From a bacterium (GTDB taxonomy: Bacteria; Fidelibacterota; UBA2242; JAFGTP01), in contig DATGCI010000255.1 in NCBI GenBank assembly GCA_035312185.1, positions 1-53,340 of the forward strand: a DNA stretch of 53,340 nucleotides, written 5' to 3'. The position numbers were made by a program, and so were the translations under genes. Shown one piece after another: positions 7,995 to 28,439 of this stretch; the first letter of the stretch is position 1, and each line of letters starts with the position of its first letter. The notes under the pieces are model-generated. The model worked only from the letters and a program-made list of their open reading frames with translations. It made no database searches and was not told where the DNA came from.

Positions 7995-9845
7995 TTAATC
8001 AGAAAGATATTCATTAATTCCTTCGGCAGCAAGTTTAGCATCGGAAATTGCAGTAACAGCGTCTAGATTTGTATTTACAATATCTCCACCAGCAAAAACA
8101 TTGGGAATAGATGTCATCCCATTTTTATCAATTGCCACTTTTTTTCTTTTAGTAAATTCAAGTTCTTTTTCGTATTTACCTAAAAATGAAAAATCAGGTC
8201 TCTGGCCAATAGCCTCTATGATCATGTCGCCTCTAATAAATTTGGTATTGTTTTCATTGTAAGTTGGTGAAAAGCGGCCATTTTCATCAAATACTGATTC
8301 TACTTTTTTACATTCTAATCCTTTAATTTTTCCATTCTCATTAAGGACGACTTCTTTCGGTCCCCAGGTAGGATTGAACTGAATGCCTTCCTCTTTCGCT
8401 TCTGTGATTTCTTCCTCTGTAGCGGGAATTTCATCCCAGCATTCCAGACAAACAGTTTTGGTTTTTACTTTTTCCTTGGGATGTTGCATATGCTGAAGCC
8501 GTATCGATTCACGAGCCACATCCATGGCAACATTGCCTCCGCCAATAACAATAACCTCTTTCCCAACTTTTCTTTGTTCACCGACCTTGTTATCCTTCAG
8601 AAAATCAAGGGCTTGTTGACATCTATCTGAATTTTTAACTCCTGTAGAAAAACTTACTGTATTACCTATTCCTAAAAATACAGAATCGTAATTTTCCAAT
8701 AATTTTTCAAATTCTATATCTTCACCCACTTGAGTGTCGAATTGAAATTGAACTCCAAGTGATTCTATATAATTCACATCTTTATCAATACTTTCCAGTG
8801 GCAATCTGTATGTTGGTGGCCCTGTTCTGAGTGCCCCCCCACCGCCGGAAAGTTCCTCAAACACGATGACTCTATGTCCTTGTAAACGCAGAAAATAGGC
8901 CAATGAGAGTCCACTTGGTCCGGCTCCAATAATGGCAATTTTTTTACCAGTAGGTTTTCCTGGTTGTATTTCAAGTGCCTCCTTGTAATTTTTGACCGTG
9001 TCTGCGGCATAACGTTTAAGCCATCTGATGGCTAGGGAATCACCTTGAATTTTTAATGAACAGGCATCTTCACAATACTTCATGCAGACCCGCCCACAAA
9101 TTGATGGAATAGGATTGTCTTCGTATATTTTATTTAAAGATTTCTCGGGTTTATTTTTAGCGATGGCATCAATATAATCAGAAATTTTCAAATGGGCAGG
9201 ACAGGCTTCTTCACAAAGTCCACATTCGAGACACCGGTAGGCCTCTTCTATAGCTTGATTCTTATTATAGCCCAGCACCTGTTCAATAAAAGATAGTTTC
9301 CTCTTCTCTGGAGGTATCTGAGGCATTTCAATTCTATCCGGTTCAAAAAGAGCATATTCCAATTTAGGTGCAAATCCCTGATAATTTTCTTTTCTGTGGT
9401 TGAGGCTGGCCTTTAAGACTGAATAATCATCACCAGATACAAAATTTTCTTGATCAACTTTTTCATTTTTAGGAATAAAAGTAAAAGTATCAGTATTAAA
9501 ATGAATATGAAAATAATCTCTGGTTAATGATAGGGATCCGGGAGGACAAATATCAACACAAAGACCACAAAAACAGCATCTACCATAATCAAGTTTGGGG
9601 CGTTCGTCCTTGATCCCCTCATCAGGCTTAGCCACTAATTCTGAGATTTTAACCATTTCTATAGCTTCGTTAGGGCAAATGTCAGCACAATTACCACAAC
9701 CAGTGCATTTTTCCCAGTCATTAGTGTGAAACCCCCTATATCTGGAGGCTGGTTCTTTTAATTCAAAGGGATATTGTAAAGTTTTTGGTTTTTGAAATAA
9801 AAATTTTATGGCTTTAAAGGGATTTAATAAACTCGTTTTTGACAT
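7995..9845 (-). CDS. Fusion protein: NuoI/MbxN-like 2x[4Fe-4S] subunit plus GltD/NfnB/SudA-like FAD/NAD(P)H oxidoreductase
   Basis: N-terminus has CTGCGNCADICP and CCFCGLCVDICP. Middle has RCLECGLCEEACP and ICGRVCMKYCEDAC, the GltD N-domain pattern. Then IAIIGAGPSGLSLA (FAD fold) and VIVIGGGNVAMDVA (NAD(P)H fold). Confidence 0.8.
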   Translation of the reverse strand: MSKTSLLNPFKAIKFLFQKPKTLQYPFELKEPASRYRGFHTNDWEKCTGCGNCADICPNEAIEMVKISELVAKPDEGIKDERPKLDYGRCCFCGLCVDICPPGSLSLTRDYFHIHFNTDTFTFIPKNEKVDQENFVSGDDYSVLKASLNHRKENYQGFAPKLEYALFEPDRIEMPQIPPEKRKLSFIEQVLGYNKNQAIEEAYRCLECGLCEEACPAHLKISDYIDAIAKNKPEKSLNKIYEDNPIPSICGRVCMKYCEDACSLKIQGDSLAIRWLKRYAADTVKNYKEALEIQPGKPTGKKIAIIGAGPSGLSLAYFLRLQGHRVIVFEELSGGGGALRTGPPTYRLPLESIDKDVNYIESLGVQFQFDTQVGEDIEFEKLLENYDSVFLGIGNTVSFSTGVKNSDRCQQALDFLKDNKVGEQRKVGKEVIVIGGGNVAMDVARESIRLQHMQHPKEKVKTKTVCLECWDEIPATEEEITEAKEEGIQFNPTWGPKEVVLNENGKIKGLECKKVESVFDENGRFSPTYNENNTKFIRGDMIIEAIGQRPDFSFLGKYEKELEFTKRKKVAIDKNGMTSIPNVFAGGDIVNTNLDAVTAISDAKLAAEGINEYLSD

Positions 9846-9859
9846 TTAATATAACCTCT

Positions 9860-10960
9860 TTATCTATCGATTTCAGGGGCAACAACATATAAACTCATCA
9901 TAATATTTCCAACATCAGCAATATCTTCCCCTACCAATAAATTTTCTAAAATTGTTAGACCATGGGAGTATGAAGGCGTACGAAAGTGAACTCTATAGGG
10001 CTTTTTACCACCACCACTAACAATATAAAGTCCTAGTTCACCGCGCGAGGATTCACACCTTACATAGGCCTCGCCTTCCGGTATTTTCCATTTAAAAGGA
10101 TTTGGAGTTTTTGTGTAAACCGGACCCTTTTTAGGCATTTTATTAATTAGTTTAAAGATCATGTGCACGCTTTCAATCATTTCATCGTGAATGGTTAATA
10201 ATCGTGAATAAGCATCCCCGCCTTTTCTGGTTGGCACATACCATTCTACTTGATCGTAAGCTGCATAAGGTTCAATTTTTCTTATGTCATATTTCATCCC
10301 GGTGGCTCTAATTGCATGGCCGACTGCCCCCATTTTTTGGGCATTTTCTCGGTCTAATTTTCCAATACCTTTTGTCCGTTTTTTAAAAAGCCTATTTTCA
10401 AAAAATGTAGAATTGTAATCCGGTATTTTTCCACCAATTGTGTGGAGTGTTTCAATGATTTTATCTTCGAAACCATTAGGAAAATCACGTCTTACTCCAC
10501 CAGGCCGAATATAAATATGGTAAACCCTGGCTCCTGTCAGTTCTTCAAATAAATCCAGAATTAAGTCTCTATGATACATTGCCCAATTAGCAACTGTATC
10601 AAACCCGAGCATATTTGAATAGGCCCATAGACCAAATAGATGAGAGGCTACTCTGGCAAGCTCAAGGTAAATGCTTCTTATATATTTTCCTCTTTCAGGA
10701 ACATCTATTGCCGCTAATTTTTCTACCCCCATAGAATAAATTAATTCTATATGATCTGGTTCTACTACGTTTATGCGACATACTAGAGGAAAATTTTGCA
10801 TCCAGGTTCGACATTCCATAAGTTTTTCAAAACCACGATGCAAATAGCCGGGATTAGCAGTAGCTTTTTTAATTCGGTCGCCCTCCACATTTAAGGTAAT
10901 GCTGAAGTTTCCAACCATGCCGAGATGCTGCGGCCCATAATATAGTTCTAGTTCTCGCAT
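9860..10960 (-). CDS. NuoD/MbxL-like subunit (homologous to group-4 hydrogenase large subunits but without NiFe cysteine ligands)
   Basis: GPQH...GYLHRGFEKLME...ARVASHL...GGVRRD...ESSRGELGLY...EIDR matches the NuoD/MbhL architecture; no CxxC motif at either end. Confidence 0.85.
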   Translation of the reverse strand: MRELELYYGPQHLGMVGNFSITLNVEGDRIKKATANPGYLHRGFEKLMECRTWMQNFPLVCRINVVEPDHIELIYSMGVEKLAAIDVPERGKYIRSIYLELARVASHLFGLWAYSNMLGFDTVANWAMYHRDLILDLFEELTGARVYHIYIRPGGVRRDFPNGFEDKIIETLHTIGGKIPDYNSTFFENRLFKKRTKGIGKLDRENAQKMGAVGHAIRATGMKYDIRKIEPYAAYDQVEWYVPTRKGGDAYSRLLTIHDEMIESVHMIFKLINKMPKKGPVYTKTPNPFKWKIPEGEAYVRCESSRGELGLYIVSGGGKKPYRVHFRTPSYSHGLTILENLLVGEDIADVGNIMMSLYVVAPEIDR

Positions 10961-11051
10961 TTCCTTCCTTTTTAATTATCTAAGTCACTATTGAGGTTGA
11001 AATAATGTTTCATTTACAATTATTTATTTTTTCATATTTTTTATTCTATTG

Positions 11052-11558
11052 TTAATGATCTTCTATCTCCGGGATATTACAAAACATATCATCCACAAAT
11101 TTTCTGGTATCGAAATTTTTTCTAAATGGAGGTATTTCATATTCTATTTCTAAAAAGAGGGGCTTTAGACGAGGATGGCCCTGGAAATGTATTCCAAAAA
11201 GTTCATAAATTTCGCGTTCATAGGGCTCGGCGTTTTCAAATATATTGATAACTGTCATAAACCTAGCTTTCTCTCGGGAGATTCTTGTTTTTATTATGAT
11301 ATTTTGTTTTTCTCTATGATGAAATTCATCATCTCTTTTCATGTAAGCAGAGACAATATAGACTAGTTCAAATTTATTCTCATTAATAAGATCCACACAT
11401 GAGATTAGGGCTAAATGTTCATATCCGGCATTTTTTAGGTAACTCAAAATGGAAATTACTCCATCTTTTGAGATGTTAATTATCATTCGATTCTCTTCCG
11501 GAATATTTATATCTATACTGTCAAATGCCATTTTAATCTTTTGTTTTAAATCATTCAT
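11052..11558 (-). CDS. NuoC/MbxK-like subunit
   Basis: 168 aa; ERE(I/V)YE-(L/M)FG-type motif (EREIYELFGIHFQGHP); position between NuoB-like and NuoD-like genes. Confidence 0.7.
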   Translation of the reverse strand: MNDLKQKIKMAFDSIDINIPEENRMIINISKDGVISILSYLKNAGYEHLALISCVDLINENKFELVYIVSAYMKRDDEFHHREKQNIIIKTRISREKARFMTVINIFENAEPYEREIYELFGIHFQGHPRLKPLFLEIEYEIPPFRKNFDTRKFVDDMFCNIPEIEDH

Positions 11559-11568
11559 TAAATTTTCC

Positions 11569-12111
11569 TCATTTGAATAATGGGGGCCAGTCTAATGAAC
11601 CCAGAATTTTCTCCTGATTAGCTCGATACTGGTCATAATTATTCCGATACTTTTTGTATCCATTGGCCATATCATTATCAATCATTTTCCAGAGATGGGT
11701 AACGGCTATAAATATAGCTTCCGGACGGGGCATACATCCTGCAATCCAGCCATCTACTGGTATGTATTTGTCGAGATGTTTAATTGTATTGTAGGAATCC
11801 CAGTACATACCACCGTTGATAGGGCAGGACCCAAAACCAACGGTATATTTAGGCTCCGGCATTTGTTCATAGGTCCTGATAATAGCTTTTAATGTCTTGA
11901 GAGATACGTATCCTGTTATCAAGAACAGATTGGCTTGTCTGGGTGTTGCTGCAGGAGTTACTCCAAAACGCTCTGCATCCCATCGGGTAGTAATTGTTGG
12001 TGGAATTTCAATGATACCGCAACCAGTGCAAAAATAGACAGCATGAAGGGAGTATTTATTTCCCATCTTTGCTGGAGTTTTTATCCATTTTATAAGTTTA
12101 TTTCTATCCAT
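11569..12111 (-). CDS. NuoB/MbxJ-like [4Fe-4S] subunit
   Basis: FCTGCGIIE, GSCPINGG and GCMPRPE supply the four Cys of an N2-type cluster. Confidence 0.85.
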   Translation of the reverse strand: MDRNKLIKWIKTPAKMGNKYSLHAVYFCTGCGIIEIPPTITTRWDAERFGVTPAATPRQANLFLITGYVSLKTLKAIIRTYEQMPEPKYTVGFGSCPINGGMYWDSYNTIKHLDKYIPVDGWIAGCMPRPEAIFIAVTHLWKMIDNDMANGYKKYRNNYDQYRANQEKILGSLDWPPLFK

Positions 12112-12127
12112 TAAAATTCTCTCTTCT

Positions 12128-13027
12128 TTATATTAAAACTGTTACAACCAGGCCCAAAAAAGCCAGAAAAGCAGGAATACCAAATAAATATTTTATTGCT
12201 TGTTCTGTTCTTAAACGGGGAAATACTGCATTAATAAAAACTCCTAATATAAATACTAACAAAACTTTAAGGAAAAAAAATGCTAAATTATTTGCTCCGC
12301 CTAAAAATAGGTTTACAAAAAGAGAAATACCAATTACAATAGCAAAAGCATGCTCAATCTTGGCAAGAGCAAGATATGTTCCTCCGTATTCTACCATTGG
12401 TCCTGATGAAATTTCTTGTGGGGCTTTAGAAATTTCAAAAGGCCGAACACCTAAAATTGCCGGAAGTATCAAGATATAAGCAATTCCAGGCAAGACTAAG
12501 GGCAACCTGAACAATGACCAGCTTCCCTTTTGTTGCAAAGCAACAATTTCTGTAATCGATATGGTTCTATAATGAGTCATCAAAGCTAAAAGAATTAGCA
12601 ATAGGGAAAATTCATATCCAAGGGTTAACAGCAATTTTCTGGATATTCCAATACTGCTGTTAGGATTGGCTGCTTCACCACTACTTAATGCTATTCCTAG
12701 AGGTGCTAATAGCATTATATATAAAATTACAAGTAAACCTCCAGAGTTACTCAAAGGATGGATTCGGCCAAAAGGAATAAACAAAACAACTGCAATAGAA
12801 CCTGCAATAGAAAAGATTATCCCAAAATTGAACAGGTGGCCATGACTTACACTTTTCTGGCTGAACATTCTAATTATGTCAATGACCGGCTGGGTAATAG
12901 GAGGTCCATACCGCCAGTGGATCCGTGCCATTATTTTTCTCGATAATCCTAAAAAGAAAACACCAACAATAAGAGCTAGAAGAGGAGATAATATGATTTC
13001 AAATATATGCATTACCACAAACTCCAT
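12128..13027 (-). CDS. NuoH/MbxM-like membrane subunit
   Basis: 299-aa polytopic protein with a WRYGPP..QP..D motif typical of NuoH/HycD-like subunits. Confidence 0.8.
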   Translation of the reverse strand: MEFVVMHIFEIILSPLLALIVGVFFLGLSRKIMARIHWRYGPPITQPVIDIIRMFSQKSVSHGHLFNFGIIFSIAGSIAVVLFIPFGRIHPLSNSGGLLVILYIMLLAPLGIALSSGEAANPNSSIGISRKLLLTLGYEFSLLLILLALMTHYRTISITEIVALQQKGSWSLFRLPLVLPGIAYILILPAILGVRPFEISKAPQEISSGPMVEYGGTYLALAKIEHAFAIVIGISLFVNLFLGGANNLAFFFLKVLLVFILGVFINAVFPRLRTEQAIKYLFGIPAFLAFLGLVVTVLI

Positions 13028-14850
13028 TTTAATTGTACAAATATTAAGATTGCCAGGAATAGGATGATATACATTACATAATTACCTACATAGCCATTGT
13101 ATATTTTTCGCAGTTTACTCGATATTTTCTTTATCCAATCTGCCAAAAGCGTATAGAATATATCGACAATATCTTTTAAATAAGGCCTTATCACTCTGTA
13201 TAAGGGCTTATAAAACTCGACTGTATAATGATATCTACCCCGGGGCACTGATGTACCAGCAGCATAGGTATCATCCTGATTTACAGATTTGGCTTTTGAA
13301 CCCAATTTTGACAATAGCCATACCAGAAGAATTCCTGCTGAAATAGCAGTAAAAATATTAATTGTATTCAATGCACCAGTTGATGAAGCCAAACCCCATA
13401 AGTTTATATTCAAAGATTCTAATCCAAAAGAGATAATAATTGAATTTATTGCTTTTAATGGGAGACCAGGAAAAATACCCAAAATGATTACAGCTAGGGA
13501 TAAAATTATCATTGGCAATTGCATAGAAAAGGGGGCCCTGCCAATTGATTTGAATTTTTCAGGAGTCTGACCTAGAAAAATATTGTGAATTAACTTAAAG
13601 CTATACAAAATAGTTCCCCAGGTTCCAAATAATGCAAAAAAAGCCAGAAAAGGTGATTTATTAAGTATTAAGGATTTATAGATAAACCACTTTGAAACAA
13701 AACCATTTGTCAATGGAACACCGATTAAACCACATGCTCCAACTAAAGCGGCAACGAATGTAATAGGCATTTGTTTGATCAGCCCACCTAAAGAATTTAA
13801 ATCCCGGACTCCATCTGTTCGGTATTCTACTGCTCCTATAGCCAGAAATAAAAGGGCTTTAAATGTAGCATGATTAATGAAATGAAATATTCCACCTGTT
13901 AAACTCAAACTTGTACCAAAAGCAATTCCAAGGATAATATATCCTGCCTGAGCTACAGTTGACCAGGCTAATAATTTTTTAGCATCCTCCTGGATTAGAG
14001 CTACAAAAGTGGAAAAGATAATTGTTACAGTAGCAAGAATATTTATAACTATTGTAAAGCCTGGCAGGGATAATAATTTTTGCACTCCAACTATAACATA
14101 AAGCAGCAGAAGAAATCCATAAGTCCCCATTTTTATCAGTATCCCGGATAGAATGGCACTGAAAGGAGAAGGCGCCTCAGAATGAGCAGGGGGTAGCCAG
14201 GCATGGAAAGGTAATATAGCGTTTTTTACACCAAAGGCTACGGAGAAAAGTATCATTATAAAAATAGTGTTATACAGTGATAAATTAATATTACCTGCTA
14301 ACTGTGATATAATTAGGGTTCCCTGAGTATTTAATATGAATAGAATTCCAATAAGCATAGCCATGGATCCGAAAATGGACATTATGATATATTTTATACC
14401 GGCAGCTAGAGAAGGACCACGTTTATAACTAATTAGTAGGAAAGTGGCCCAGCTCATCATTTCCCAAAAAATAAAGAAACTTACTAAATCTCCTGATAAT
14501 ACTATACCGATCATTGCGGCATTAATAAAAAGAATCATAAAATAATAGAAATCTACTTTTTCTTTTCCCTTCATATAACTCAAAGAGAAAATAACAGAAA
14601 GTGAACTAAGAATGGAAATTGCAATCGCAAAAATCCAGGCTAGATTGTTGATTCTTAGAGTAAGTCGAAGTCCTAAAAATTCAAAAAGAGGGGTTTCAAT
14701 ATTTTTACCGAATAATAAAGCTATCATAGGAATCAGGGCTGTAGAAAAAACAACTGCTAAAGTTTTGCGAAGCTTGCTTGAAACTTTGCCTGCCAGGTAG
14801 GTAATTATTGCACCACTAAAAGCAACTATAAGTATTAGCGCCAAACTCAT
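13012..14850 (-). CDS. MrpA/NuoL/MbxH'-like antiporter-type subunit
   Basis: 612-aa polytopic protein; HAWLPPAHSEAPSPFSAILSG proton-pump-subunit motif. Confidence 0.85.
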   Translation of the reverse strand: MSLALILIVAFSGAIITYLAGKVSSKLRKTLAVVFSTALIPMIALLFGKNIETPLFEFLGLRLTLRINNLAWIFAIAISILSSLSVIFSLSYMKGKEKVDFYYFMILFINAAMIGIVLSGDLVSFFIFWEMMSWATFLLISYKRGPSLAAGIKYIIMSIFGSMAMLIGILFILNTQGTLIISQLAGNINLSLYNTIFIMILFSVAFGVKNAILPFHAWLPPAHSEAPSPFSAILSGILIKMGTYGFLLLLYVIVGVQKLLSLPGFTIVINILATVTIIFSTFVALIQEDAKKLLAWSTVAQAGYIILGIAFGTSLSLTGGIFHFINHATFKALLFLAIGAVEYRTDGVRDLNSLGGLIKQMPITFVAALVGACGLIGVPLTNGFVSKWFIYKSLILNKSPFLAFFALFGTWGTILYSFKLIHNIFLGQTPEKFKSIGRAPFSMQLPMIILSLAVIILGIFPGLPLKAINSIIISFGLESLNINLWGLASSTGALNTINIFTAISAGILLVWLLSKLGSKAKSVNQDDTYAAGTSVPRGRYHYTVEFYKPLYRVIRPYLKDIVDIFYTLLADWIKKISSKLRKIYNGYVGNYVMYIILFLAILIFVQLKWSLW

Positions 14851-15119
14851 CCCAGTACGCTCCTTATATAATCTATTTGATCTATAAGCTCTGAACTAGC
14901 CGGACGTAAAATTCCGTTTATAAAATCTGGATATATTCCGATAAATATTATAATTGAAGCAAAAATTATCATTGGTATTAATCCTGCAGCTGGTGCTTCT
15001 GCTTTTTTAATATCAGGGTTGCCATCTTTGAAATATACTACTTGAATCACACGGAAAAAATAGGCGCCTTCAATTACAGTTCCGAGCAAAACAAGCCCAA
15101 TTAATATTATGTTCAACAT
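14847..15119 (-). CDS. C-terminal two-to-three-TM segment of the MrpD/NuoN-like subunit, expressed as a separate ORF or split fragment
   Basis: ATG directly follows the in-frame TAA of the 403-aa ORF; 403 + 90 aa equals typical MrpD length; hydrophobic. Confidence 0.5.
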   Translation of the reverse strand: MLNIILIGLVLLGTVIEGAYFFRVIQVVYFKDGNPDIKKAEAPAAGLIPMIIFASIIIFIGIYPDFINGILRPASSELIDQIDYIRSVLG

Positions 15120-16331
15120 TTATCCAGTAGTCAGGGCAGCCTTAACAATCGTAAATTTGCTTACAAAACCCACAAATGGTGGGAGGCCTACCATAGAAAA
15201 AACTCCGATAGTAAATAGAAGTGTGGTAACCGGCATCTTCTCGCCAATACCTTCGAAAGAATCAATTTCCATAGAACCAGTTCTATAGATCATAAAGCCT
15301 GTTGCCAGAAATAATAATGCTTTCCCTAGCGTATGACTTATCATTTGAAATAATCCACCGGTAATTCCAGATGATGAGGCTATTGAAAAAGCAAAAACAA
15401 TAAGACCAATCTGTCCAATACTGGAATAAGCCAGCATTCGTTTTATATTATTTTGACCAAAAGCACACAGTTCTCCAATTAAAAGTGTAACAACTCCCAG
15501 AGAAAGAAAAAATATGAAAAAGTTGGATACATTGAATATAGTAAACAGAAATCGAATAATGGCATATAAACCTACTTCAATGGCAATGCCAGAAAGAATT
15601 GCACTAATAGAAGAAGGAGCGGAGGAATGGGCGTCTGGTAGCCAGGCATTCAGAGGAAAGATAGCGGCTTCAATCTCTAATCCCGTAATAATTAGAGCCA
15701 TTGGTACTAATATAGATTTTGTTTCTACTGATTGAATTTGTCGGGCAAGATCGGCCATATTCAGACTGCCAAACTGGCCATAGAGCAGTCCAATTCCTAT
15801 CAGTAGAAGGCTTGAACCGATGGAGCCTTGAATCAAATATTTTATAGCGGATTCAATTCCTGCTTTATCTCCGAAATAGGCTACCAGAGCATAGGATGAA
15901 ATACAAAGAATCTCAAAAAATACAAAAAGATTGAATATGTCTCCAGTGAGGACAACTCCGGTTGCTCCGGTCAATAACAGCATATAAAGAATGTAATATT
16001 TCTGATGAGCACCCTCCTTGATATATTTTAGAGAGTAAATAGATACTAAAAGACCTGCTAAAGATATTAAAATGGAAAATAATATTCCAACTGGACCAGC
16101 AAAAAGGTTAATGCAAAAGGGCGGAGCGAACCCTCCAATTTTTATAATAATAGATGCATCTAAAATCCGGGGGACTAATGATACAGAAAGAATAAGATTA
16201 AAAAGGAATCCAATCACAGGCATCCATTTAACTATCTTATTTGAGAGTAATCCCAGGAGTGGTATAAAAAATGCTATGCCTAGTGGTACAGAAATTAATA
16301 AAACAGGATTTAAGTAAGTTATCTCATTCAT
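15120..16331 (-). CDS. MrpD/NuoN/MbxH-like antiporter-type subunit (lacks the usual C-terminal approx. 90 aa)
   Basis: NAWLPDAHSSAPSSISAILSG motif; polytopic; 403 aa. Confidence 0.85.
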   Translation of the reverse strand: MNEITYLNPVLLISVPLGIAFFIPLLGLLSNKIVKWMPVIGFLFNLILSVSLVPRILDASIIIKIGGFAPPFCINLFAGPVGILFSILISLAGLLVSIYSLKYIKEGAHQKYYILYMLLLTGATGVVLTGDIFNLFVFFEILCISSYALVAYFGDKAGIESAIKYLIQGSIGSSLLLIGIGLLYGQFGSLNMADLARQIQSVETKSILVPMALIITGLEIEAAIFPLNAWLPDAHSSAPSSISAILSGIAIEVGLYAIIRFLFTIFNVSNFFIFFLSLGVVTLLIGELCAFGQNNIKRMLAYSSIGQIGLIVFAFSIASSSGITGGLFQMISHTLGKALLFLATGFMIYRTGSMEIDSFEGIGEKMPVTTLLFTIGVFSMVGLPPFVGFVSKFTIVKAALTTG

Positions 16332-16360
16332 ATAATTTTATCCTATTAAAAGTAAAATCA

Positions 16361-16723
16361 TTAGTATTTTTGCTCTCTTATTTTTTTCAAATTAAGTGTT
16401 CCGTAATGATGGAAAAGTCTGATTGCTAGGGACAGGGCCAGGGCGAGAACAGCCAATCCTATTACAATAGCTGTTAATACAAGGGCCTGAGGAACTGGAT
16501 CAACCATATTTTTGGCTTTTAATCCGATCTTTGAGAATATTGGTGCTGTGCCTTCACTAATATATCCGAGCGAAATGAGGAATATATTAACTCCGGTTTC
16601 AAGGATACTTAAACCTATTATAACTTTTATTAGATTCTTTTTTGAAAGAATAATGAATAGACCTATAAATATGAGACCAAAAGCACCAATGTAATATATA
16701 TAACTGTTTAAAAAGTCAATCAT
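16361..16723 (-). CDS. MrpC/NuoK-like subunit
   Basis: 120 aa, three TM segments, LIKVIIGLSILETGVNIFLISLGY. Confidence 0.75.
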   Translation of the reverse strand: MIDFLNSYIYYIGAFGLIFIGLFIILSKKNLIKVIIGLSILETGVNIFLISLGYISEGTAPIFSKIGLKAKNMVDPVPQALVLTAIVIGLAVLALALSLAIRLFHHYGTLNLKKIREQKY

Positions 16724-17406
16724 CTAGTCTCCTCCATCAGATGATCTATAATTATGGTCAATTCTGAGCCTACTTTGAATCCAATTGCAATATAAATAAT
16801 GGGAATTATCCCTGCACTAAAGAGATTGTTTAATTGGCCTTTGGGAAGAAAATTGGATAAAAAGAAGTGGCCTCCAACTGCAAGACCTACTAGACCGAGA
16901 ATTAAAAAAGTCAGGCCACTCAGAGATTCTGCTAAAGTACTACCACTCTCACTGACTCTCTTACCGTGGCAGCCAAGATAGGCCAATAAAAAAGCCGATG
17001 CAATCACAGCACCACCCTGAAATCCTCCACCAGGGGAAAGATGACCATGGATAAAAATATAGGCACCGAAAATTAGGATAAGGGGAAATAAAAATCGACA
17101 TCCAGTGGAAAGAATGAGACTCGCTTCTTCTACTTTGGCTTTATTTTTATTTTGGAATGTGGCCAATACCGCTCCTAATCCAATTGCAGCCAGGAAAAGC
17201 ACTGTAACTTCTCCAAGTGTATCAAAACTTCTATATTGAACAACAACAGAGGTAACAATATTTGAAGCCCCTGTCTGTTTTCTACCCTTTGCATTGTAAT
17301 ATTTACCAACTTTGGATTTATTTTCTCCAAAATGAATGTTCTGTAAAGATGTGAAAATACCCCATGCAATAATTAGTAATAAGATTATTCCAATAATCTT
17401 TCTCAC
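16720..17406 (-). CDS. MrpB (MnhB)-domain subunit
   Basis: NIVTSVVVQYRSFDTLGEVTVLF motif typical of MnhB; polytopic. Confidence 0.75.
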   Translation of the reverse strand: MRKIIGIILLLIIAWGIFTSLQNIHFGENKSKVGKYYNAKGRKQTGASNIVTSVVVQYRSFDTLGEVTVLFLAAIGLGAVLATFQNKNKAKVEEASLILSTGCRFLFPLILIFGAYIFIHGHLSPGGGFQGGAVIASAFLLAYLGCHGKRVSESGSTLAESLSGLTFLILGLVGLAVGGHFFLSNFLPKGQLNNLFSAGIIPIIYIAIGFKVGSELTIIIDHLMEETR

Positions 17407-17642
17407 TCTTCGTACCTCTTTGTTCGCTTAATGGCGATGATAAATACTGCAGTAACTAGGGCCGCTCCTATCGAAGCTTCGGCCATGGCTACATCAGGAG
17501 CTTGTAGAAAATAGAATAAAACTGAGGCCGACAAACTAACAAGACAGGAAGCTATGACCGCACTTATCAAGTCTTTAAAAATTAAAGCTGCTACTGCCGA
17601 GACCAACATAAGTATGACCAATAGTGAAACTATAATAATCAT
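17403..17642 (-). CDS. DUF4040/MbhD-like small membrane subunit
   Basis: 79 aa; LQAPDVAMAEASIGAAL motif; 4-nt overlaps with both neighbours. Confidence 0.65.
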   Translation of the reverse strand: MIIIVSLLVILMLVSAVAALIFKDLISAVIASCLVSLSASVLFYFLQAPDVAMAEASIGAALVTAVFIIAIKRTKRYEE

Positions 17643-17971
17643 TTTGTCTCCTCGTATCCATCAAAATATTTTGTTTTGTCAACAATGCTTTGATCCCATA
17701 GTTCAACACCGATTTTTTTAGATGCTCTGGCAATTGCGTGACTGGAAATAGGATTTGTAATTAGTACAAAAAGGGCAATAAGTAAACATTTCCAAAACCA
17801 GCCCGGTTGCATTATGCCAACTCCAATAATTGTAAAAAAAGTCCCAAACGTTGTACACTTCGTTCCGGCTTGAATTCTATTATATACATCAGGTAGTCTT
17901 AGAACACCAAAATTTCCTAACATTAAAAATAAAACGCCGATGCCTGTCACAATTGTGCCGAATAATTCCAT
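17639..17971 (-). CDS. MrpG (MnhG)-like subunit
   Basis: GNFGVLRLPDVYNRIQAGTKCTTFG motif. Confidence 0.8.
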   Translation of the reverse strand: MELFGTIVTGIGVLFLMLGNFGVLRLPDVYNRIQAGTKCTTFGTFFTIIGVGIMQPGWFWKCLLIALFVLITNPISSHAIARASKKIGVELWDQSIVDKTKYFDGYEETK

Positions 17972-18232
17972 TTAAATCCCCTTTTCCATATATCTTGCCA
18001 GAGCAACTAGCCCTACAAAGGCAAGTAAGGAATAAACTAAAGATACATCTAGATAAACATACCTTTTAAAAACAAAACCTAACAGAACTAGTAAGGCAAC
18101 AGCTGTAGTAGTTATTGTGTCCATTGCTACCGCTCTGTCTGAGGCAGTAGGCCCTATCATCAATCGGATAGTACTGAATATGAATCCTAACCCGATAAGA
18201 GACAAAAACACTAAAATAATTGTACTATTCAT
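17972..18232 (-). CDS. MrpF (MnhF)-like subunit
   Basis: IRLMIGPTASDRAVAMDTITT motif; 86 aa. Confidence 0.8.
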   Translation of the reverse strand: MNSTIILVFLSLIGLGFIFSTIRLMIGPTASDRAVAMDTITTTAVALLVLLGFVFKRYVYLDVSLVYSLLAFVGLVALARYMEKGI

Positions 18233-18744
18233 GAAAAGATCACCTTTAAATATTTTTCAAATTTTGCCCCGATCATTTTACTAGAATTATCTACATCTTG
18301 ATAACGAACATTTATCCAATGGATAAGCATTTTATCACCTTTTATATCCAGGGTAAAGGTTCCAGGCGTGAGGGTTATTGAATTTGCCAGGATTAATTTG
18401 GCGATATCCTGTTTTAAGGAGGTCTTAATTACTACAATACCAGGTTTTATAGGCATTTTGGGATGAAGGACTCTATAGGCGACATCAAAGTTGGCTTTAG
18501 TAATTTCTACTAAAAGCACAAAAATATATGCTATAAAGAATATAATGCGTTTTACGCTTAAAGGGGGTAAGCCTAAATACTCGTATCTTTTACTTAAAAA
18601 TATTGACAGAATAAGACTAATCAAAATACCTATTGAGAGCTCCTGCCAGTGAAAAGTGCCTGTAAGAATAAGCCAGATAATTACTAGTATAACGAAAAGA
18701 TATAAGAAATTCCTGAGTTGATATTTATTATTCTGCTTCCGCAT
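18229..18744 (-). CDS. MrpE (MnhE)-like subunit
   Basis: 171 aa; two N-terminal TM segments followed by a soluble domain; first gene of the mrp-like block. Confidence 0.7.
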   Translation of the reverse strand: MRKQNNKYQLRNFLYLFVILVIIWLILTGTFHWQELSIGILISLILSIFLSKRYEYLGLPPLSVKRIIFFIAYIFVLLVEITKANFDVAYRVLHPKMPIKPGIVVIKTSLKQDIAKLILANSITLTPGTFTLDIKGDKMLIHWINVRYQDVDNSSKMIGAKFEKYLKVIFS

Positions 18745-18817
18745 TTACCTCCTCCTTATGCTTTCACAATTAATTCAACTCCTTTGGTAAAAAATTTATT
18801 CTTCATTTAAAGATATT

Positions 18818-19441
18818 TCACTTTTTATAGGAATAATAAGCCAATTTTGATAATTCTGTACTAAGATCTATACATGTTACTTCGATATTCTCGGGCATTA
18901 CTATTTGGCAGGGAGCAAAAGACAAGATCGCTTTTATCCCCGCATCTTTCATTTGTTGGGCTACATTATGGGCTGCTTCTTCCGGTACAGTCAAAACTCC
19001 CATCTTAATATCTTCTTCTATTATTCTTTTTTTCATGAGGTCAATATTTTCAATTGTAACGCTATGGATTTTTTTACCAATTTTTTGCAAATCATTGTCA
19101 AAGGCCATAACAATTTTAAAACCTTCGGAATCAAAACCACGATAAGATAATAATGCCTTGCCAATATTCCCAACTCCTGCCAGAGCAACTTCAGAAGGTG
19201 GCTCGAGTTGTAGAATATCTTTGACTTCGTCAATTAGATTTTCTACATCGTATCCAACACCTTTAGTACCAAAGTCTCCAAAGTAGGAGAAGTCTTTCCG
19301 TATAATAGCAGGATTAACGTTGCATAATTTTGATAAATTGTAGGAGGAAACGTATTTTTTGCCGATTTTAGATAAACAAAGTAAAGATCTAAAATAGGTG
19401 AATAAGCGACTTATTGTTTCTTTGGGGATTTTGTTTTTCAT
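18818..19441 (-). CDS. rex: Redox-sensing transcriptional repressor Rex
   Basis: N-terminal winged helix (IPKETISRLFTYFRSL); Rossmann motif LAGVGNIGKAL; 207 aa. Confidence 0.85.
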   Translation of the reverse strand: MKNKIPKETISRLFTYFRSLLCLSKIGKKYVSSYNLSKLCNVNPAIIRKDFSYFGDFGTKGVGYDVENLIDEVKDILQLEPPSEVALAGVGNIGKALLSYRGFDSEGFKIVMAFDNDLQKIGKKIHSVTIENIDLMKKRIIEEDIKMGVLTVPEEAAHNVAQQMKDAGIKAILSFAPCQIVMPENIEVTCIDLSTELSKLAYYSYKK

Positions 19442-19469
19442 GATCTCAATTAGTGTTAAAATTATGTGA

Positions 19470-19487
19470 TTGTGAATATAATCACAA
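19470..19487. promoter_or_regulatory. Rex operator (TTGTGAATATAATCACAA) embedded in the 36-bp palindrome 19461..19496
   Basis: 17/18 match to the TTGTGAA-N4-TTCACAA consensus; 29 bp upstream of the rex start; flanked by extended perfect 15-bp arms ATTATGTGATTGTGA / TCACAATCACATAAT. Confidence 0.65.
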
Positions 19488-19497
19488 TCACATAATC

Positions 19498-19526
19498 AAT
19501 CTATGTCATGAAATGTTAAATGTCAA
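19498..19526 (-). promoter_or_regulatory. Candidate sigma-70 promoter of the rex-mrp-mbx operon
   Basis: On the minus strand: -35 TTGACA (19526..19521), 17-bp spacer, -10 TAGATT (19503..19498); the palindrome starts 2 nt downstream. Confidence 0.45.
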
Positions 19527-20309: not shown

Positions 20310-20368
20310 TTGTAAGCAAAGATTTATTTAATATGGTATAATGGCCATTATAAAAGGATATCAAAAAA

Positions 20369-21142: not shown

Positions 21143-21143
21143 T

Positions 21144-23233: not shown

Positions 23234-23261
23234 TTTAATTATTAGAAAAGGAGAGTCTCAA

Positions 23262-26831: not shown

Positions 26832-27056
26832 TTTTGATTCCTTCTTAAATTAAATAATCGGAAAAGTTAACTATCTTAGAGCTTGTTTCCCAACTTAAAT
26901 TTTTTGGGTTGGAATTTGTTGTATTGTTAAAGTATTAAATCAAATATTTATAGCCTCCTGACCTTTTTTTACAGATCAGTTGATTTTTTGTCAATGCTAT
27001 ACCCCCCGCCCTCTATTAAAGAGGACGAGAGGTTAGCAGAGGAGGGACTAAATTAA

Positions 27057-28415: not shown

Positions 28416-28439
28416 ACATACTCTCCTTTCGAATTACAT

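What the first reader, a model, noticed from the sequence alone, without database searches (positions are those of the whole stretch)
7995..19526. Rex-headed 14-ORF Mrp-Mbx/Ehr-type membrane complex with Mbx gene order
rex is followed on the same strand by 14 ORFs with gaps of 91 bp or less and several 4-nt overlaps. The order is MrpE, MrpF, MrpG, DUF4040/MbhD-like, MrpB, MrpC/NuoK, MrpD (in two pieces), a second large MrpA/NuoL-like subunit, NuoH, NuoB, NuoC, NuoD, NuoI-GltD. Two large antiporter subunits, and NuoH placed before NuoB, match the archaeal mbxABCDFGHH'MJKLN order rather than mbh or nuo. The window holds no NuoEFG, no hydrogenase maturation genes and no obvious terminal-acceptor gene. 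So the substrate pair of this presumably ion-translocating complex cannot be read from the sequence. Hydrogenase-related complexes without NiFe ligands (Mbx/MBS, Ehr) are known families. I cannot establish from here whether this exact bacterial variant is already described.
Basis: partly seen in the sequence, partly recalled or inferred. Interest (0 to 1): 0.7.

Follow-up and report, generated by a model that had tools for sequence, protein, structure and literature searches.

The report
Rex-controlled bacterial Mbx/MBS-type respiratory complex
This is a real operon for a 13-subunit membrane ion pump related to complex I, of the known but biochemically untested bacterial "Mbx" type, and its built-in NADH-binding flavoprotein and NADH-sensing repressor give a testable idea of what it does.

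Summary
On the minus strand (19441 to 7995), rex is followed by 14 tightly packed ORFs that make 13 genes in the archaeal order mbxABCD(E/F)GHH'MJKLN.

For the six subunits compared with solved structures (L, J, H, H', M and the N-terminal part of N), the closest match is the Pyrococcus furiosus MBS (formerly Mbx) chain. Complex I and the Mbh hydrogenase score far lower. The large subunit has no NiFe ligands and no quinone-site His/Tyr. The NuoB-like subunit keeps the MBS-type proximal-cluster motif without a gap.

The last gene fuses MbxN to an NfnB/GltD-like flavoprotein. Its NADPH "YRR" motif reads C/S-L-E in all 121 close homologues, which predicts NAD(H). A near-perfect Rex operator lies just after a promoter-like site, and it is conserved in relatives.

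The "two-piece MrpD" is one in-frame TAA followed directly by ATG. A second assembly has it too, but a same-species contig has CAA.

This GltD-fused bacterial Mbx is already described for Thermotoga and others, and its function is disputed. So this is a new member of a known kind.

My best reading is an electron-disposal pump: NADH, then FAD, then five [4Fe-4S] clusters, then a non-quinone acceptor, probably sulfane sulfur. That direction is inferred, not shown.

The parts
19498..19526 (-). Promoter-like site TTGACA-17 nt-TAGATT upstream of rex
   Evidence: 10 of 12 matches. Consensus match only; such sites are not more frequent in this region than in shuffles. The same promoter-then-operator layout is seen in L037.
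19470..19487 (.). Rex operator TTGTGAATATAATCACAA, one mismatch to TTGTGAA-N4-TTCACAA, ending 28 bp before the rex ATG
   Evidence: It is the only match with 1 mismatch or fewer in 53 kb, where 0.01 is expected. Boxes with 1 and 0 mismatches sit at the same place upstream of rex in L003 and L005. L037 has a 3-mismatch version.
18818..19441 (-). rex, the NADH/NAD+-sensing repressor (207 aa) and first gene of the operon
   Evidence: NCBIfam Rex NF003995 scores 240 bits (cut-off 126) and NF003993 scores 232 (cut-off 217). Pfam Put_DNA-bind_N plus CoA_binding. rex also precedes mnhE in L003, L005, L035/L036 and L037.
18229..18744 (-). mbxA (MrpE/MnhE-like, 171 aa)
   Evidence: PF01899, E 2.5e-41.
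17972..18232 (-). mbxB (MrpF-like, 86 aa)
   Evidence: PF04066, E 1.3e-18.
17639..17971 (-). mbxC (MrpG-like, 110 aa)
   Evidence: PF03334, E 3.8e-25.
17403..17642 (-). mbxD (MbhD/DUF4040-like, 79 aa)
   Evidence: PF13244, E 4.5e-19.
16720..17406 (-). mbxE/F (fused MbhE + MnhB, 228 aa), as in MbsE
   Evidence: PF20501 plus PF04039 in one protein. NCBIfam NF009217, 232 bits.
16361..16723 (-). mbxG (MrpC/NuoK-like, 120 aa)
   Evidence: PF00420, E 3.1e-24.
14847..16331 (-). mbxH (MrpD-like antiporter subunit), interrupted by an in-frame TAA at 15120-15122 followed directly by ATG, giving 403 + 90 aa
   Evidence: Best solved match is MbsH 6u8y_H, 301 bits. The two pieces map to positions 4-403 and 408-487 of one 494-position NCBIfam model. 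Relatives are continuous, and L032 has CAA at this codon. The TAA recurs in the independent assembly L039. MbsH E138, E219 and K393 are conserved; K250 is Glu in most of this clade and H330 is Gln.
13012..14850 (-). mbxH' (second, longer antiporter-like subunit with a C-terminal extension, 612 aa)
   Evidence: Full-length match to MbsH' 6u8y_X, residues 5-604 against 6-615, 254 bits. MbhH scores 222 and MrpA 178.
12128..13027 (-). mbxM (NuoH-like membrane anchor, 299 aa)
   Evidence: MbsM 6u8y_M scores 207 bits, against MbhM 72 and ND1 about 58. The TMH5-6 loop acidic residues are kept: MbsM D196 is Glu here, and E203 and E211 are Glu. E104 and E193 are not conserved.
11569..12111 (-). mbxJ (NuoB-like; carries the proximal [4Fe-4S] cluster, 180 aa)
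   Evidence: Ungapped alignment to MbsJ, 222 bits. C28, C31, C96 and C126 correspond to MbsJ C25, C28, C93 and C123, and the FCTGCG loop has the same length.
11052..11558 (-). mbxK (NuoC-like, 168 aa)
   Evidence: PF00329, E 3e-28.
9860..10960 (-). mbxL (NuoD / hydrogenase-large-subunit-like, 366 aa), with no NiFe site and no quinone site
   Evidence: MbsL scores 348 bits over the full length. Of the four hydrogenase Cys positions only the first remains (C61). MbsL C85 and C385 are N64 and V360 here. The complex-I His38 and Tyr87 equivalents are V16 and V65.
9471..9845 (-). N-terminal domain of the last gene: MbxN/NuoI-like 2x[4Fe-4S] ferredoxin domain (about residues 1-125)
   Evidence: MbsN 6u8y_N scores 114 bits over residues 3-112. 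NCBIfam NuoI models hit it. All 9 Cys are invariant in 121 sequences.
7995..9347 (-). C-terminal part of the same gene: NfnB/GltD-like module (Fer4_20 with 2x[4Fe-4S], FAD and NAD(H) Rossmann folds). C466-L467-E468 (nt 8442-8450) occupies the place of the NADPH YRR motif.
   Evidence: NfnI large subunit 5jca_L scores 246 bits and T. maritima NfnB 4ylf_B scores 238. The whole 616-aa protein matches NCBIfam NF010590 'putative oxidoreductase' end to end at 693 bits, below its 946 cut-off. The motif is [S/C]LE in 121 of 121 sequences and is also seen in the Thermotogae and Izemoplasmatales versions.

Best explanation
This is a Rex-autoregulated operon for a 13-subunit bacterial Mbx/MBS-type complex. 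In the wider sense it is an 'Ehr' complex: a relative of group-4 hydrogenases and complex I that has neither a NiFe site nor a quinone site.

What the sequence shows:
- The membrane arm is an Mrp-type module (MbxA-G) plus two antiporter-like pumps (MbxH, MbxH') and the NuoH-like anchor MbxM.
- The peripheral arm is MbxJ, K, L and N.
- MbxN is fused to an NfnB/GltD-like flavoprotein. That module has FAD, two more [4Fe-4S] clusters and a nicotinamide site whose sequence predicts NAD(H) rather than NADP(H).

What I infer about how it works:
1. When NADH builds up, Rex leaves its operator and the operon is transcribed.
2. NADH reduces the FAD.
3. Electrons pass along a chain of five [4Fe-4S] clusters: two in the Fer4_20 domain, two in the MbxN domain, and the proximal cluster in MbxJ.
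4. They reach the chamber formed by MbxJ, MbxL and MbxM.
5. There the MBS-type proximal cluster reduces a non-quinone acceptor, most likely sulfane sulfur (polysulfide), as in Pyrococcus MBS.
6. This chemistry drives H+/Na+ export through MbxM, H', H and the Mrp module.

On this reading the complex is an energy-conserving electron-disposal route. Ferredoxin may still donate electrons at the MbxN domain.

In this strain MbxH is made as two polypeptides by stop-restart at TAA-ATG, or it is impaired.
For: Identity of the complex:
- Domain content and order.
- Synteny in more than 30 loci.
- The best solved homologues for L, J, H, H', M and N are all MBS chains.

A working catalytic core:
- MbxJ aligns to MbsJ without a gap, with the same FCTGCG loop and all four Cys. 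In MBS this loop leaves one Fe of the proximal cluster without a Cys ligand, and that Fe is proposed to be the catalytic site (PMC7684303).
- MbxL and MbxJ are the most conserved subunits among relatives, at 85-89% and 83-85%, against 57-66% for H' and M. This argues that chemistry happens at that site.
- The MbxM coupling loop is conserved.

NAD(H) input:
- The NfnB-like module is complete: all 17 Fe-S Cys are invariant in 121 sequences, and the FAD and NAD Rossmann motifs are present.
- YRR is replaced by [S/C]LE throughout the family.
- YRR holds the 2'-phosphate in NfnB, and DsrL enzymes that lack it use NAD(H) (PMC7596348).

Regulation:
- There is a unique Rex box, with 0.01 expected by chance.
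- Box and rex gene are conserved upstream in relatives that are 72-77% identical.
- Rex regulons include fermentation, hydrogenase and other redox genes that dispose of reductant (PMC6391272).

Sulfur link:
- T. maritima mbxA rises 4.4-fold with S0 (PMC9431562).
- The same-species contig comes from a MAG labelled Tobar18m.

Selection:
- dN/dS is 0.18-0.46 against the same-species contig, based on few substitutions.
Against: - No biochemical data exist for any bacterial member. Donor, acceptor and direction are all inferred.
- Published readings differ: Fd to NAD(P)+ (PMC4758237; bioRxiv 10.1101/322537; PMC4596419) and Fd to S0 (PMC9431562).
- Rex also controls enzymes that do not use NAD(H), such as Ech and PFOR in C. 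bescii. Rex control therefore does not prove that NADH is a substrate.
- By my own estimate from textbook midpoint potentials, NADH to polysulfide has a small standard driving force, about 50-60 mV. It is enough for pumping only at low sulfide, yet the pump architecture matches that of the ferredoxin-driven MBS.
- The window clade lacks MbsL C85 and C385, although these are dispensable in MBS.
- The electron wire between the Fer4_20 and MbxN clusters could not be checked, because the AlphaFold model was poor (pLDDT 58.9, pTM 0.53).
- The TAA in mbxH may impair this strain's enzyme.
Confidence: 0.5

Rival explanations
1. Ferredoxin:NAD(P)+ oxidoreductase, doing the job of Rnf. Reduced ferredoxin donates at MbxN, the GltD-like module reduces NAD(P)+, and the energy difference pumps ions. 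This is the reading most often given in the literature for bacterial Mbx.
For: - Stated for Thermotoga and proteobacteria (PMC4758237), Mesotoga and Caldanaerobacter.
- The nicotinamide-binding module is present and intact.
- By my estimate from textbook potentials, the Fd-to-NAD+ gap of about 130-180 mV suits ion pumping.
Against: - On this path electrons would go from the MbxN clusters straight to FAD. They would bypass the MbxJ proximal cluster and the J/L/M chamber, where all characterised relatives couple redox chemistry to pumping (PMC7684303). Yet J and L are the most conserved subunits.
- The same model for Pyrococcus Mbx has been superseded by the MBS work, which shows sulfane reduction at the proximal cluster.
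- Derepression by Rex at high NADH would switch on an NADH-producing enzyme when NADH is already in excess.
- The YRR motif is absent, so the NADP+ version is unlikely.
Confidence: 0.2
2. Ferredoxin-driven sulfane-sulfur reductase exactly as archaeal MBS. The flavoprotein module would be only a side branch that equilibrates the Fe-S chain with the NAD(H) pool, or a second, minor donor.
For: - Proposed for T. maritima MBX, whose mbxA is induced 4.4-fold by S0 (PMC9431562).
- The MbsJ, L, M, H and H' features are conserved.
- The full MBS pump set fits the larger Fd-to-S driving force.
Against: - A permanent, invariant fusion is costly for a side branch: 17 Fe-S Cys are invariant in 121 sequences, and the fusion is present in both bacterial clades.
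- An open Fd/NADH junction would short-circuit ferredoxin to NAD+ without energy coupling.
- By analogy with how NfnB/GltD modules meet their partners, the Fer4_20 domain probably sits where ferredoxin would dock on the distal MbxN cluster. This is inference and was not tested.
Confidence: 0.15
3. Reverse electron transport. The ion gradient drives NADH oxidation with ferredoxin reduction, and the ferredoxin feeds a hydrogenase. Syntrophic fermenters need such a route.
For: - Rex logic fits, because the enzyme would consume NADH when NADH is high.
- Relatives occur in MAGs labelled Cloacimonadota and Atribacterota.
Against: - It has the same wiring problem as the Fd:NAD+ model, since the MbxJ/L site is off the path.
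- No hydrogenase gene lies in the window.
- No experimental precedent for this in the Mbx/MBS family turned up in the papers I read.
Confidence: 0.08
4. In this particular strain the operon is decaying. The TAA in mbxH inactivates the complex.
For: An in-frame TAA at 15120-15122, where all ten relatives compared at this junction read through. It is reproducible in a second assembly.
Against: - It is the only lesion; all other genes are intact.
- The stop is followed at once by ATG, so re-initiation could give a two-piece protein. By the residue numbering the cut falls about ten residues after the Lys that aligns with MbsH K393, in a segment that varies among relatives.
- dN/dS of the downstream piece and of the other genes is 0.18-0.46 against the CAA strain, though based on few substitutions.
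Confidence: 0.05
5. A true group-4 [NiFe] hydrogenase (Mbh/Ech/Hyf) or a canonical NADH:quinone complex I.
For: - NCBIfam would name the L subunit NuoD: NF004739 scores 414 bits against a cut-off of 360.
- Subunit families are shared with both systems.
Against: - No CxxC pairs for NiFe.
- MbhL scores only 122 bits and HycE 104, against 348 for MbsL.
- The quinone His/Tyr are Val/Val.
- NuoB has CxxC, not CC.
- No NuoEFG and no hyp genes in the window.
- The membrane arm is Mrp-type.
Confidence: 0.02

Closest known systems
Pyrococcus furiosus MBS (membrane-bound sulfane reductase, formerly Mbx; PDB 6U8Y; PMC7684303)
   Same: - Same 13 genes in the same order, with MbhE and MnhB fused in one subunit and two antiporter-like subunits H and H'.
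- For the six subunits compared with solved structures, the closest match is the MBS chain.
- The MbsJ proximal-cluster loop has identical length and Cys pattern.
- No NiFe site and no quinone site.
   Different: - MbxN carries an extra module of about 450 aa (NfnB/GltD-like; FAD, two [4Fe-4S] clusters, NAD(H) site), whereas MbsN is a 208-aa protein that matches only the first ~112 residues of the fusion and takes electrons from ferredoxin.
- MbsL C85 and C385 are Asn and Val here, and a different vestigial Cys (C61) is kept.
- MbsH K250 is Glu and H330 is Gln.
- Regulation is by Rex. From my own knowledge, Thermococcales use the sulfur-responsive SurR.
- The organism is bacterial with low G+C. 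That it is mesophilic is my assumption from its lake origin.
Bacterial 'mbx-like' complex with a GltD-related MbxN (Thermotoga maritima MBX, Mesotoga; PMC4758237, PMC9431562, bioRxiv 10.1101/322537)
   Same: - Same fusion and same gene order. Thermotogaceae, Marinitoga, Izemoplasmatales and Acholeplasma loci are syntenic at 30-58% identity.
- Same [S/A]LE motif in place of YRR.
- Same MbsJ-type motif.
   Different: - The Thermotogae/Izemoplasmatales clade keeps both MbsL cysteines and a His in the beta1-beta2 loop; the window clade does not.
- No rex and no Rex box precede those operons. In Marinitoga an ArsR-family regulator precedes the operon.
- No rubrerythrin follows the operon here, although that paper says one often does.
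Respiratory complex I (Nuo) and cyanobacterial NDH-1
   Same: - Homologous Q-module (NuoB, C, D, I), NuoH, NuoK and antiporter-like subunits.
- If NADH is the donor, the overall logic is the same: a flavin, then an Fe-S wire, then a coupling site, then pumps.
   Different: - No NuoEFG. The flavoprotein is of the unrelated NfnB/GltD type and is fused to NuoI.
- No quinone ligands.
- CxxC instead of CC in NuoB.
- An Mrp E/F/G/B module is present.
- Bit scores to complex I chains are well below those to MBS: 237 against 348 for the L subunit, and about 90-126 against 222 for the J subunit.
NfnAB / GltD / DsrL family of NAD(P)H:iron-sulfur flavoproteins
   Same: Fer4_20 domain with two [4Fe-4S] clusters, an FAD Rossmann fold and an embedded NAD(P) Rossmann fold. 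Scores are 238-246 bits to the NfnB structures.
   Different: - No NfnA partner, so there is no evident bifurcation branch.
- The YRR motif is replaced by C-L-E, as in the NAD(H)-using DsrL-1 type.
- The module is fused to a NuoI-type domain and belongs to a membrane complex.

Membership tests
Mbx/MBS (archaeal membrane-bound sulfane reductase) | 13 genes in the order A B C D E/F G H H' M J K L N, with NuoH (M) before NuoB (J) and two large antiporter-like subunits | tested here: met
   Conserved in relatives.
Mbx/MBS (archaeal membrane-bound sulfane reductase) | Subunits closer to MBS chains than to Mbh, Mrp, complex I or FHL chains | tested here: met
   L 348 against 237, 122 and 104 bits; J 222 against 126, 103 and 101; H' 254 against 222; H 301 against 239; M 207 against 72; N domain 114. 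No tree was built; the ranking is by bit score against solved chains.
Mbx/MBS (archaeal membrane-bound sulfane reductase) | MbsJ proximal-cluster loop three residues shorter than in MBH, with a CxxC whose first Cys cannot reach the cluster | tested here: met
   Ungapped alignment with FCTGCG identical; C28, C31, C96 and C126 present. Met at the sequence level only; the coordination geometry was not tested.
Mbx/MBS (archaeal membrane-bound sulfane reductase) | MbsL has lost two of the four NiFe cysteines and keeps C85 and C385 | tested here: not met
   The window clade has N64 and V360 at those positions and keeps only the first hydrogenase Cys position (C61). In MBS the two Cys are dispensable for catalysis.
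Mbx/MBS (archaeal membrane-bound sulfane reductase) | MbsN is a stand-alone two-cluster subunit reduced by ferredoxin | tested here: not met
   Here it is the N-terminal domain of a 616-aa fusion with an NfnB/GltD-like flavoprotein.
Mbx/MBS (archaeal membrane-bound sulfane reductase) | Polysulfide / dimethyltrisulfide reductase activity coupled to ion translocation | not testable with these tools
   Needs enzyme assays.
Ehr (energy-converting hydrogenase-related complexes, umbrella term) | Relative of the group-4 hydrogenase large subunit without Ni/Fe-coordinating residues, together with Mrp antiporter-like subunits | tested here: met
   Definition as given in PMC6349859. Features shown.
Bacterial GltD-fused Mbx-like complex (Thermotoga type) | The NuoI/MbxN position is occupied by a flavoprotein related to GltD, within an operon that contains a whole mrp set | tested here: met
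   Description in PMC4758237. Synteny with Thermotogaceae and Marinitoga loci.
Bacterial GltD-fused Mbx-like complex (Thermotoga type) | Operon often ends with rubrerythrin | tested here: not met
   Downstream are convergent CNNM/CorC genes. This is an 'often' feature, not a defining one.
Group-4 [NiFe] hydrogenase (Mbh, Ech, Hyf/Hyc) | Two CxxC motifs (L1, L2) that bind the NiFe centre in the large subunit | tested here: not met
   Only one of the four Cys positions is occupied.
Group-4 [NiFe] hydrogenase (Mbh, Ech, Hyf/Hyc) | hyp maturation genes in the genome | tested here: inconclusive
   None in the 53-kb window. The rest of the genome was not available.
Complex I (NADH:quinone oxidoreductase) | Quinone head-group ligands His38 and Tyr87 (T. 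thermophilus Nqo4 numbering) in NuoD | tested here: not met
   Val16 and Val65 in the alignment to the Yarrowia and other 49-kDa subunits.
Complex I (NADH:quinone oxidoreductase) | Tandem cysteines (CC) ligating cluster N2 in NuoB | tested here: not met
   C-T-G-C instead.
Complex I (NADH:quinone oxidoreductase) | NuoE, F, G NADH-oxidising module | tested here: not met
   Absent from the operon and the window.
NfnB/GltD-type flavoprotein | Fer4_20 domain with ligands for two [4Fe-4S] clusters, plus FAD and NAD(P) Rossmann folds | tested here: met
   PF14691 and PF07992. Alignments to 5jca_L and 4ylf_B. All Cys invariant in 121 sequences.
NfnB/GltD-type flavoprotein | YRR motif that binds the 2'-phosphate of NADPH | tested here: not met
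   C466-L467-E468 aligns with Y310-R311-R312 of T. maritima NfnB. The motif is [S/C]LE in 121 of 121 sequences. Its meaning is taken from PMC7596348. This predicts NAD(H).
NfnB/GltD-type flavoprotein | NfnA-type partner (2Fe-2S plus FAD) that gives the second branch for electron bifurcation | tested here: not met
   No such gene in the operon.
Rex regulon | Rex protein and a TTGTGAA-N4-TTCACAA operator in the promoter region | tested here: met
   Conserved in L003, L005 and L037. Binding itself was not tested.

The most novel reading that the evidence does not exclude
This widespread bacterial clade could be an NADH-driven, quinone-independent counterpart of complex I. On this reading, an MBS-type chassis acquired its own NADH-input module independently: an NfnB/GltD-type flavoprotein fused to the NuoI/MbxN subunit, in place of NuoEFG. 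The complex would sit under direct NADH/NAD+ control by Rex and would conserve energy by passing NADH electrons to sulfane sulfur, or to another non-quinone acceptor, at an open-coordination [4Fe-4S] cluster. That would be a second evolutionary route from a ferredoxin-dependent ancestor to an NADH-oxidising ion pump.
Probability: 0.3. Interest if true: 0.7.

Novelty: new member of a known kind. Interest (0 to 1): 0.4.

Why it matters
Bacterial Mbx complexes with a GltD-type subunit are common in anaerobes. More than 120 sequence clusters are at least 68% identical to this one alone. They occur in MAGs labelled Cloacimonadota, Fidelibacterota/Marinimicrobia, Atribacterota, Bacteroidales and others, and there is a second clade in Thermotogae and Izemoplasmatales.

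None has been characterised biochemically. Published metabolic models give them opposite roles: making NAD(P)H from ferredoxin, or reducing sulfur with ferredoxin.

Three points here sharpen the question into experiments:
- The nicotinamide site looks NADH-specific across the whole family.
- The MBS-type catalytic cluster motif and the J and L subunits are the most conserved parts.
- In this clade the operon is headed by Rex, with a conserved operator.

If NADH is the donor, energy budgets in models of these uncultured fermenters and sulfur reducers would change. The complex would also illustrate an alternative path in complex I evolution.

As a sequence feature, however, the operon is a regular member of a family already in the literature.

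Tried and rejected
1. AlphaFold2 of the 616-aa fusion with a 30-sequence alignment, meant to judge whether the two Fe-S domains form one wire. Mean pLDDT was 58.9 and pTM 0.53, with the linker and N-terminus below 50. The model was unusable, so I ran no fold search.
2. Rfam scan of the whole window: no hits.
3. Promoter and terminator scans inside the operon. Counts equal the shuffled expectation (49 against 50.2 promoter-like sites, 7 against 8.4 terminator-like sites). So there is no evidence for or against internal transcription units. Co-transcription rests on the spacing and the conserved synteny.
4. The key comparative paper on Rex regulons (Ravcheev 2012, PMC3294762) is not held. I could not check whether mbx was ever listed as a Rex target.
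5. A literature search for Mbx together with Cloacimonadota found nothing. The MBS review PMC8165549 does not mention the bacterial GltD variant.
6. Exact-sequence look-up of the truncated 403-aa MbxH found nothing. Look-up through MbxJ succeeded.
7. Hypotheses considered and rejected:
   - An alternative genetic code or programmed readthrough at the TAA. The same-species contig has CAA, and every other ORF is intact under table 11.
   - A hydrogenase, or canonical Nuo (see rival explanations).
   - An Nfn-like bifurcating enzyme. There is no NfnA-type partner gene in the operon. A quinone as high-potential acceptor also looks unlikely, because the quinone-site residues are absent.
8. I did not build a formal phylogeny of the L and J subunits. 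Reference sequences for Ech, Hyf, Fpo and Ehr were not available offline, so I used bit-score ranking against solved chains instead.

Full report
**Observation.**
The window has a low G+C content (about 32-41%). Between 7995 and 19441 it carries 15 consecutive minus-strand ORFs.

From the coordinates, the junctions are:
- gaps of 73, 29, 16, 10, 91 and 14 bp
- two 0-bp junctions
- five 4-nt overlaps
- one 16-nt overlap

Pfam and NCBIfam give, in transcription order:
- Rex
- MnhE, MrpF, MrpG, MbhD
- a fused MbhE+MnhB protein
- NuoK/MrpC
- an MrpD-type protein in two ORFs (403 + 90 aa)
- a 612-aa antiporter-like protein
- NuoH, NuoB, NuoC, NuoD
- a 616-aa protein with a NuoI-type dicluster domain followed by Fer4_20 and Pyr_redox_2 (GltD/NfnB-like)

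The whole 616-aa protein matches the NCBIfam model NF010590 'putative oxidoreductase' end to end at 693 bits, below its cut-off of 946. The fusion is therefore itself a recognised but unnamed family.

**The split MrpD.**
The two ORFs are in the same frame. They are separated by one TAA (15120-15122), which is followed directly by ATG. They map to positions 4-403 and 408-487 of a single 494-position model.
- In ten relatives the gene is continuous.
- In L032 the codon is CAA. L032 is 97-99% identical at the nucleotide level, so it is the same species; its MAG is labelled Candidatus Neomarinimicrobiota, now Fidelibacterota.
- An independent ENA assembly, L039, differs from the window at 3 of 12,543 bases and carries the same TAA.

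This is therefore a real, recent C-to-T nonsense change in one strain lineage. It is neither an ancestral feature nor an assembly error. Stop-restart could still give a two-piece MbxH. Nothing else in the operon is damaged.

**What family it is.**
The order MnhE-MrpF-MrpG-MbhD-(MbhE/MnhB)-NuoK-MrpD-MrpD'-NuoH-NuoB-NuoC-NuoD-NuoI is that of mbxABCD(E/F)GHH'MJKLN. I compared six subunits with all solved structures. Each has the Pyrococcus furiosus MBS chain (6U8Y) as its best match, by a wide margin:

| Subunit | MBS chain | Next best |
|---|---|---|
| L | 348 bits | complex I 237, MbhL 122, HycE 104 |
| J | 222 bits | NDH-1 126, complex I 103 or less, MbhJ 101 |
| H' | 254 bits, full length | MbhH 222 |
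| H | 301 bits | MbhH 239 |
| M | 207 bits | MbhM 72 |
| N-terminal domain of the fusion | 114 bits | other NuoI-type chains 58 or less |

Further points:
- The L subunit has no NiFe site. Only one of the four hydrogenase cysteine positions is occupied.
- The complex-I quinone ligands His38 and Tyr87 are Val16 and Val65.
- The J subunit has CxxC, not the tandem CC of complex I. It aligns to MbsJ without any gap, and the FCTGCG loop is preserved. In MBS that loop leaves one Fe of the proximal cluster free of cysteine and is proposed to make it the catalyst (PMC7684303).
- Three of the five acidic residues named for the MbsM charge path are kept, including those of the TMH5-6 coupling loop.

The complex is therefore of the Mbx/MBS type. 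It also fits the umbrella term Ehr as used in PMC6349859. It is neither a hydrogenase nor a canonical Nuo.

**Relatives.**
A scan of representative genomes with the fusion protein returned 34 loci. Mapping all window proteins onto them shows the same gene order throughout. There are two clades.

*The window's clade* (67-89% identity)
- It occurs in MAGs labelled Cloacimonadota, Neomarinimicrobiota, Atribacterota, Desulfobacteraceae, Bacteroidales and others.
- It has N and V at MbsL C85 and C385, a conserved Cys at the first hydrogenase Cys position, and Glu at the MbsH K250 position in most members.

*The second clade* (30-58% identity)
- It is found in Thermotogaceae, Marinitoga, Izemoplasmatales, Acholeplasma and Haloplasmataceae.
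- It keeps both MbsL cysteines.

In the large protein database, more than 120 clusters of full-length fusions are at least 68% identical to the window protein. They are annotated only as 'FAD-dependent oxidoreductase' or 'glutamate synthase small chain'.

**The flavoprotein module.**
Residues from about 167 to 616 align with NfnB-type proteins: P. furiosus NfnI large subunit at 246 bits and T. maritima NfnB at 238 bits. All 17 cysteines of the four Fe-S motifs are invariant in 121 sequences.

The motif Y310-R311-R312 holds the 2'-phosphate of NADPH in NfnB, and DsrL enzymes that lack it use NAD(H) (PMC7596348). That motif aligns with C466-L467-E468. The position reads [S/C]-L-E in 121 of 121 close homologues and S/A-L-E in the Thermotogae and Izemoplasmatales versions.

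I infer that the module binds NAD(H), not NADP(H). There is no NfnA-type partner, so there is no evident second branch for electron bifurcation.

**Regulation.**
- The only match in 53 kb to the Rex operator TTGTGAA-N4-TTCACAA with one mismatch or fewer is at 19470-19487, where 0.01 is expected by chance.
- It lies just downstream of a TTGACA-17-TAGATT promoter-like site, and it ends 28 bp before the rex start codon.
- L003 and L005, at about 77% identity, have rex in the same place, with boxes of 1 and 0 mismatches.
- L037 (74%) has rex and a 3-mismatch box after a TTGACT-17-TATAAT site.
- L035/L036 (72%) also start with rex.
- The Thermotogae and Izemoplasmatales loci have neither rex nor a box. 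In Marinitoga an ArsR-family gene precedes the operon.

Rex-headed, self-regulated expression is thus a conserved trait of at least part of the window's clade. L010, L013 and L014, at 65-69% identity, lack rex.

**How it most likely works.**
The following is shown by sequence:
- a complete MBS-like pump
- an intact MBS-type proximal-cluster motif
- an intact NAD(H)-type flavoprotein fused to the electron-entry subunit
- a Rex operator

The following is inferred. High NADH releases Rex. NADH reduces the FAD. Electrons run through two Fer4_20 clusters, two MbxN clusters and the MbxJ cluster. They reach a non-quinone acceptor in the J/L/M chamber, most likely sulfane sulfur. This drives H+/Na+ export.

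Three arguments favour this reading over the commonly cited Fd:NAD(P)+ oxidoreductase role:
1. A ferredoxin-to-MbxN-to-FAD path would bypass the J/L site. Yet J and L are the most conserved subunits, at 83-89% against 57-66% for H' and M.
2. The analogous model for Pyrococcus Mbx has been superseded by the MBS work.
3. Switching on an NADH-producing enzyme when NADH is already high makes little regulatory sense.

Supporting hints:
- T. maritima mbxA is induced 4.4-fold by S0.
- The window also encodes a protein of the CoA-disulfide-reductase/NADH-oxidase family, which by my own knowledge is the superfamily of the NSR sulfur reductases (27057-28415), and a tandem rhodanese (50095-50982). These are weak, circumstantial pointers.

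Caveats:
- Rex also controls enzymes that do not use NAD(H), such as Ech and PFOR in C. bescii.
- By my estimate from textbook potentials, the standard driving force from NADH to polysulfide is small. It suffices only at sub-molar sulfide.
- No member of the bacterial family has been assayed.
- I could not model the Fe-S wire.

I give the identification about 0.9 confidence and the full mechanism about 0.5.

**Comparison with what is known, and novelty.**
- The GltD-type bacterial Mbx was described in 2015 for Thermotoga and some proteobacteria (PMC4758237).
- It features in metabolic models of Mesotoga and T. maritima. A bacterial mbx cluster is also described for Caldanaerobacter/Thermoanaerobacter, without mention of a GltD fusion in the passage read.
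- The archaeal prototype has a structure and a mechanism.

The window's operon is therefore a new member of a known kind. The following appear not to be reported in the papers I could search:
- the Rex-headed arrangement with a conserved operator
- the family-wide NAD(H)-type motif
- the different vestigial-cysteine pattern of this clade
- the strain-specific TAA

None of these makes it a new kind of system. I score interest at 0.4. The operon is ordinary as a sequence feature, but the family's function is a real open question, and these observations make it more directly testable.

Noticed in passing
window 15120-15122 (minus strand); L039 2990-2992; L032 about 285-287: An in-frame TAA splits mbxH into 403 + 90 aa, with ATG immediately after. 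It is present in a second assembly that differs at 3 of 12,543 bases. A same-species contig has CAA at this codon.
   Followed up: yes
L001 2035-2388 and 8310-8795; L004 607-966, 5536-6681, 7809-8252 and 8296-8697; L035 8506-8799: In several relatives, small unrelated genes sit inside the mbx operon at fixed intergenic sites. A 23S-rRNA-intervening-sequence protein (PF05635) lies between mbxG and mbxH. One or two PD-(D/E)XK proteins (PF13366) lie between mbxK and mbxL. An AAA ATPase lies between mbxM and mbxJ. The window has none; its mbxK-mbxL gap is 91 bp (10961-11051).
   Followed up: partly
window 26016-31782 (minus strand): A cluster encodes an NBP35/Mrp-like P-loop protein, a flavoprotein of the CoA-disulfide-reductase/NADH-oxidase family (27057-28415; by my own knowledge the same superfamily as the NSR sulfur reductases), two Nitro_FeMo-Co-like proteins, a methyltransferase and two CbiA/MinD-like proteins with 4Fe-4S motifs.
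   Followed up: partly
window 50095-50982 (minus strand): A two-domain rhodanese (sulfurtransferase) lies about 30 kb from the operon. It is only a weak pointer to sulfane-sulfur handling.
   Followed up: no
window 19863-24428 (plus strand): Transcribed divergently from rex are a CGGC-domain protein, a metallo-beta-lactamase-fold protein, an NAD kinase and two aminotransferases. The 421-bp intergenic region is very AT-rich. I did not establish whether Rex also controls this side.
   Followed up: no
L023 833-1153 and 9983-11829 (Marinitoga lauensis): An ArsR-family HTH protein with three Cys lies directly upstream of mnhE, in the place that Rex occupies in the window. The fusion gene there is read as 527 + 107 aa, probably a frameshift in that assembly.
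   Followed up: partly
L035 11887-21857: Convergent with the mbx operon in this relative is a cluster encoding HdrB/C-like, HdrA-like, MvhD/FlpD-like and large NfnB-like proteins.
   Followed up: no
L001 14402-15334; L015 10907-15175; L004 20254-20757: Some relatives carry a second NuoH/Mrp-type gene set a few kb downstream of the mbx operon. The window does not; two CNNM/CorC paralogues (5424-7921) follow its operon.
   Followed up: no
L011 6216-6233: A one-mismatch Rex box lies about 290 bp downstream of the fusion gene in this relative, presumably serving a neighbouring gene.
   Followed up: no
window 42440-44761 (minus strand): A run of small genes encodes DUF134, a Nitro_FeMo-Co-like protein, DUF5320 and a radical-SAM protein. 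Its function is unknown.
   Followed up: no
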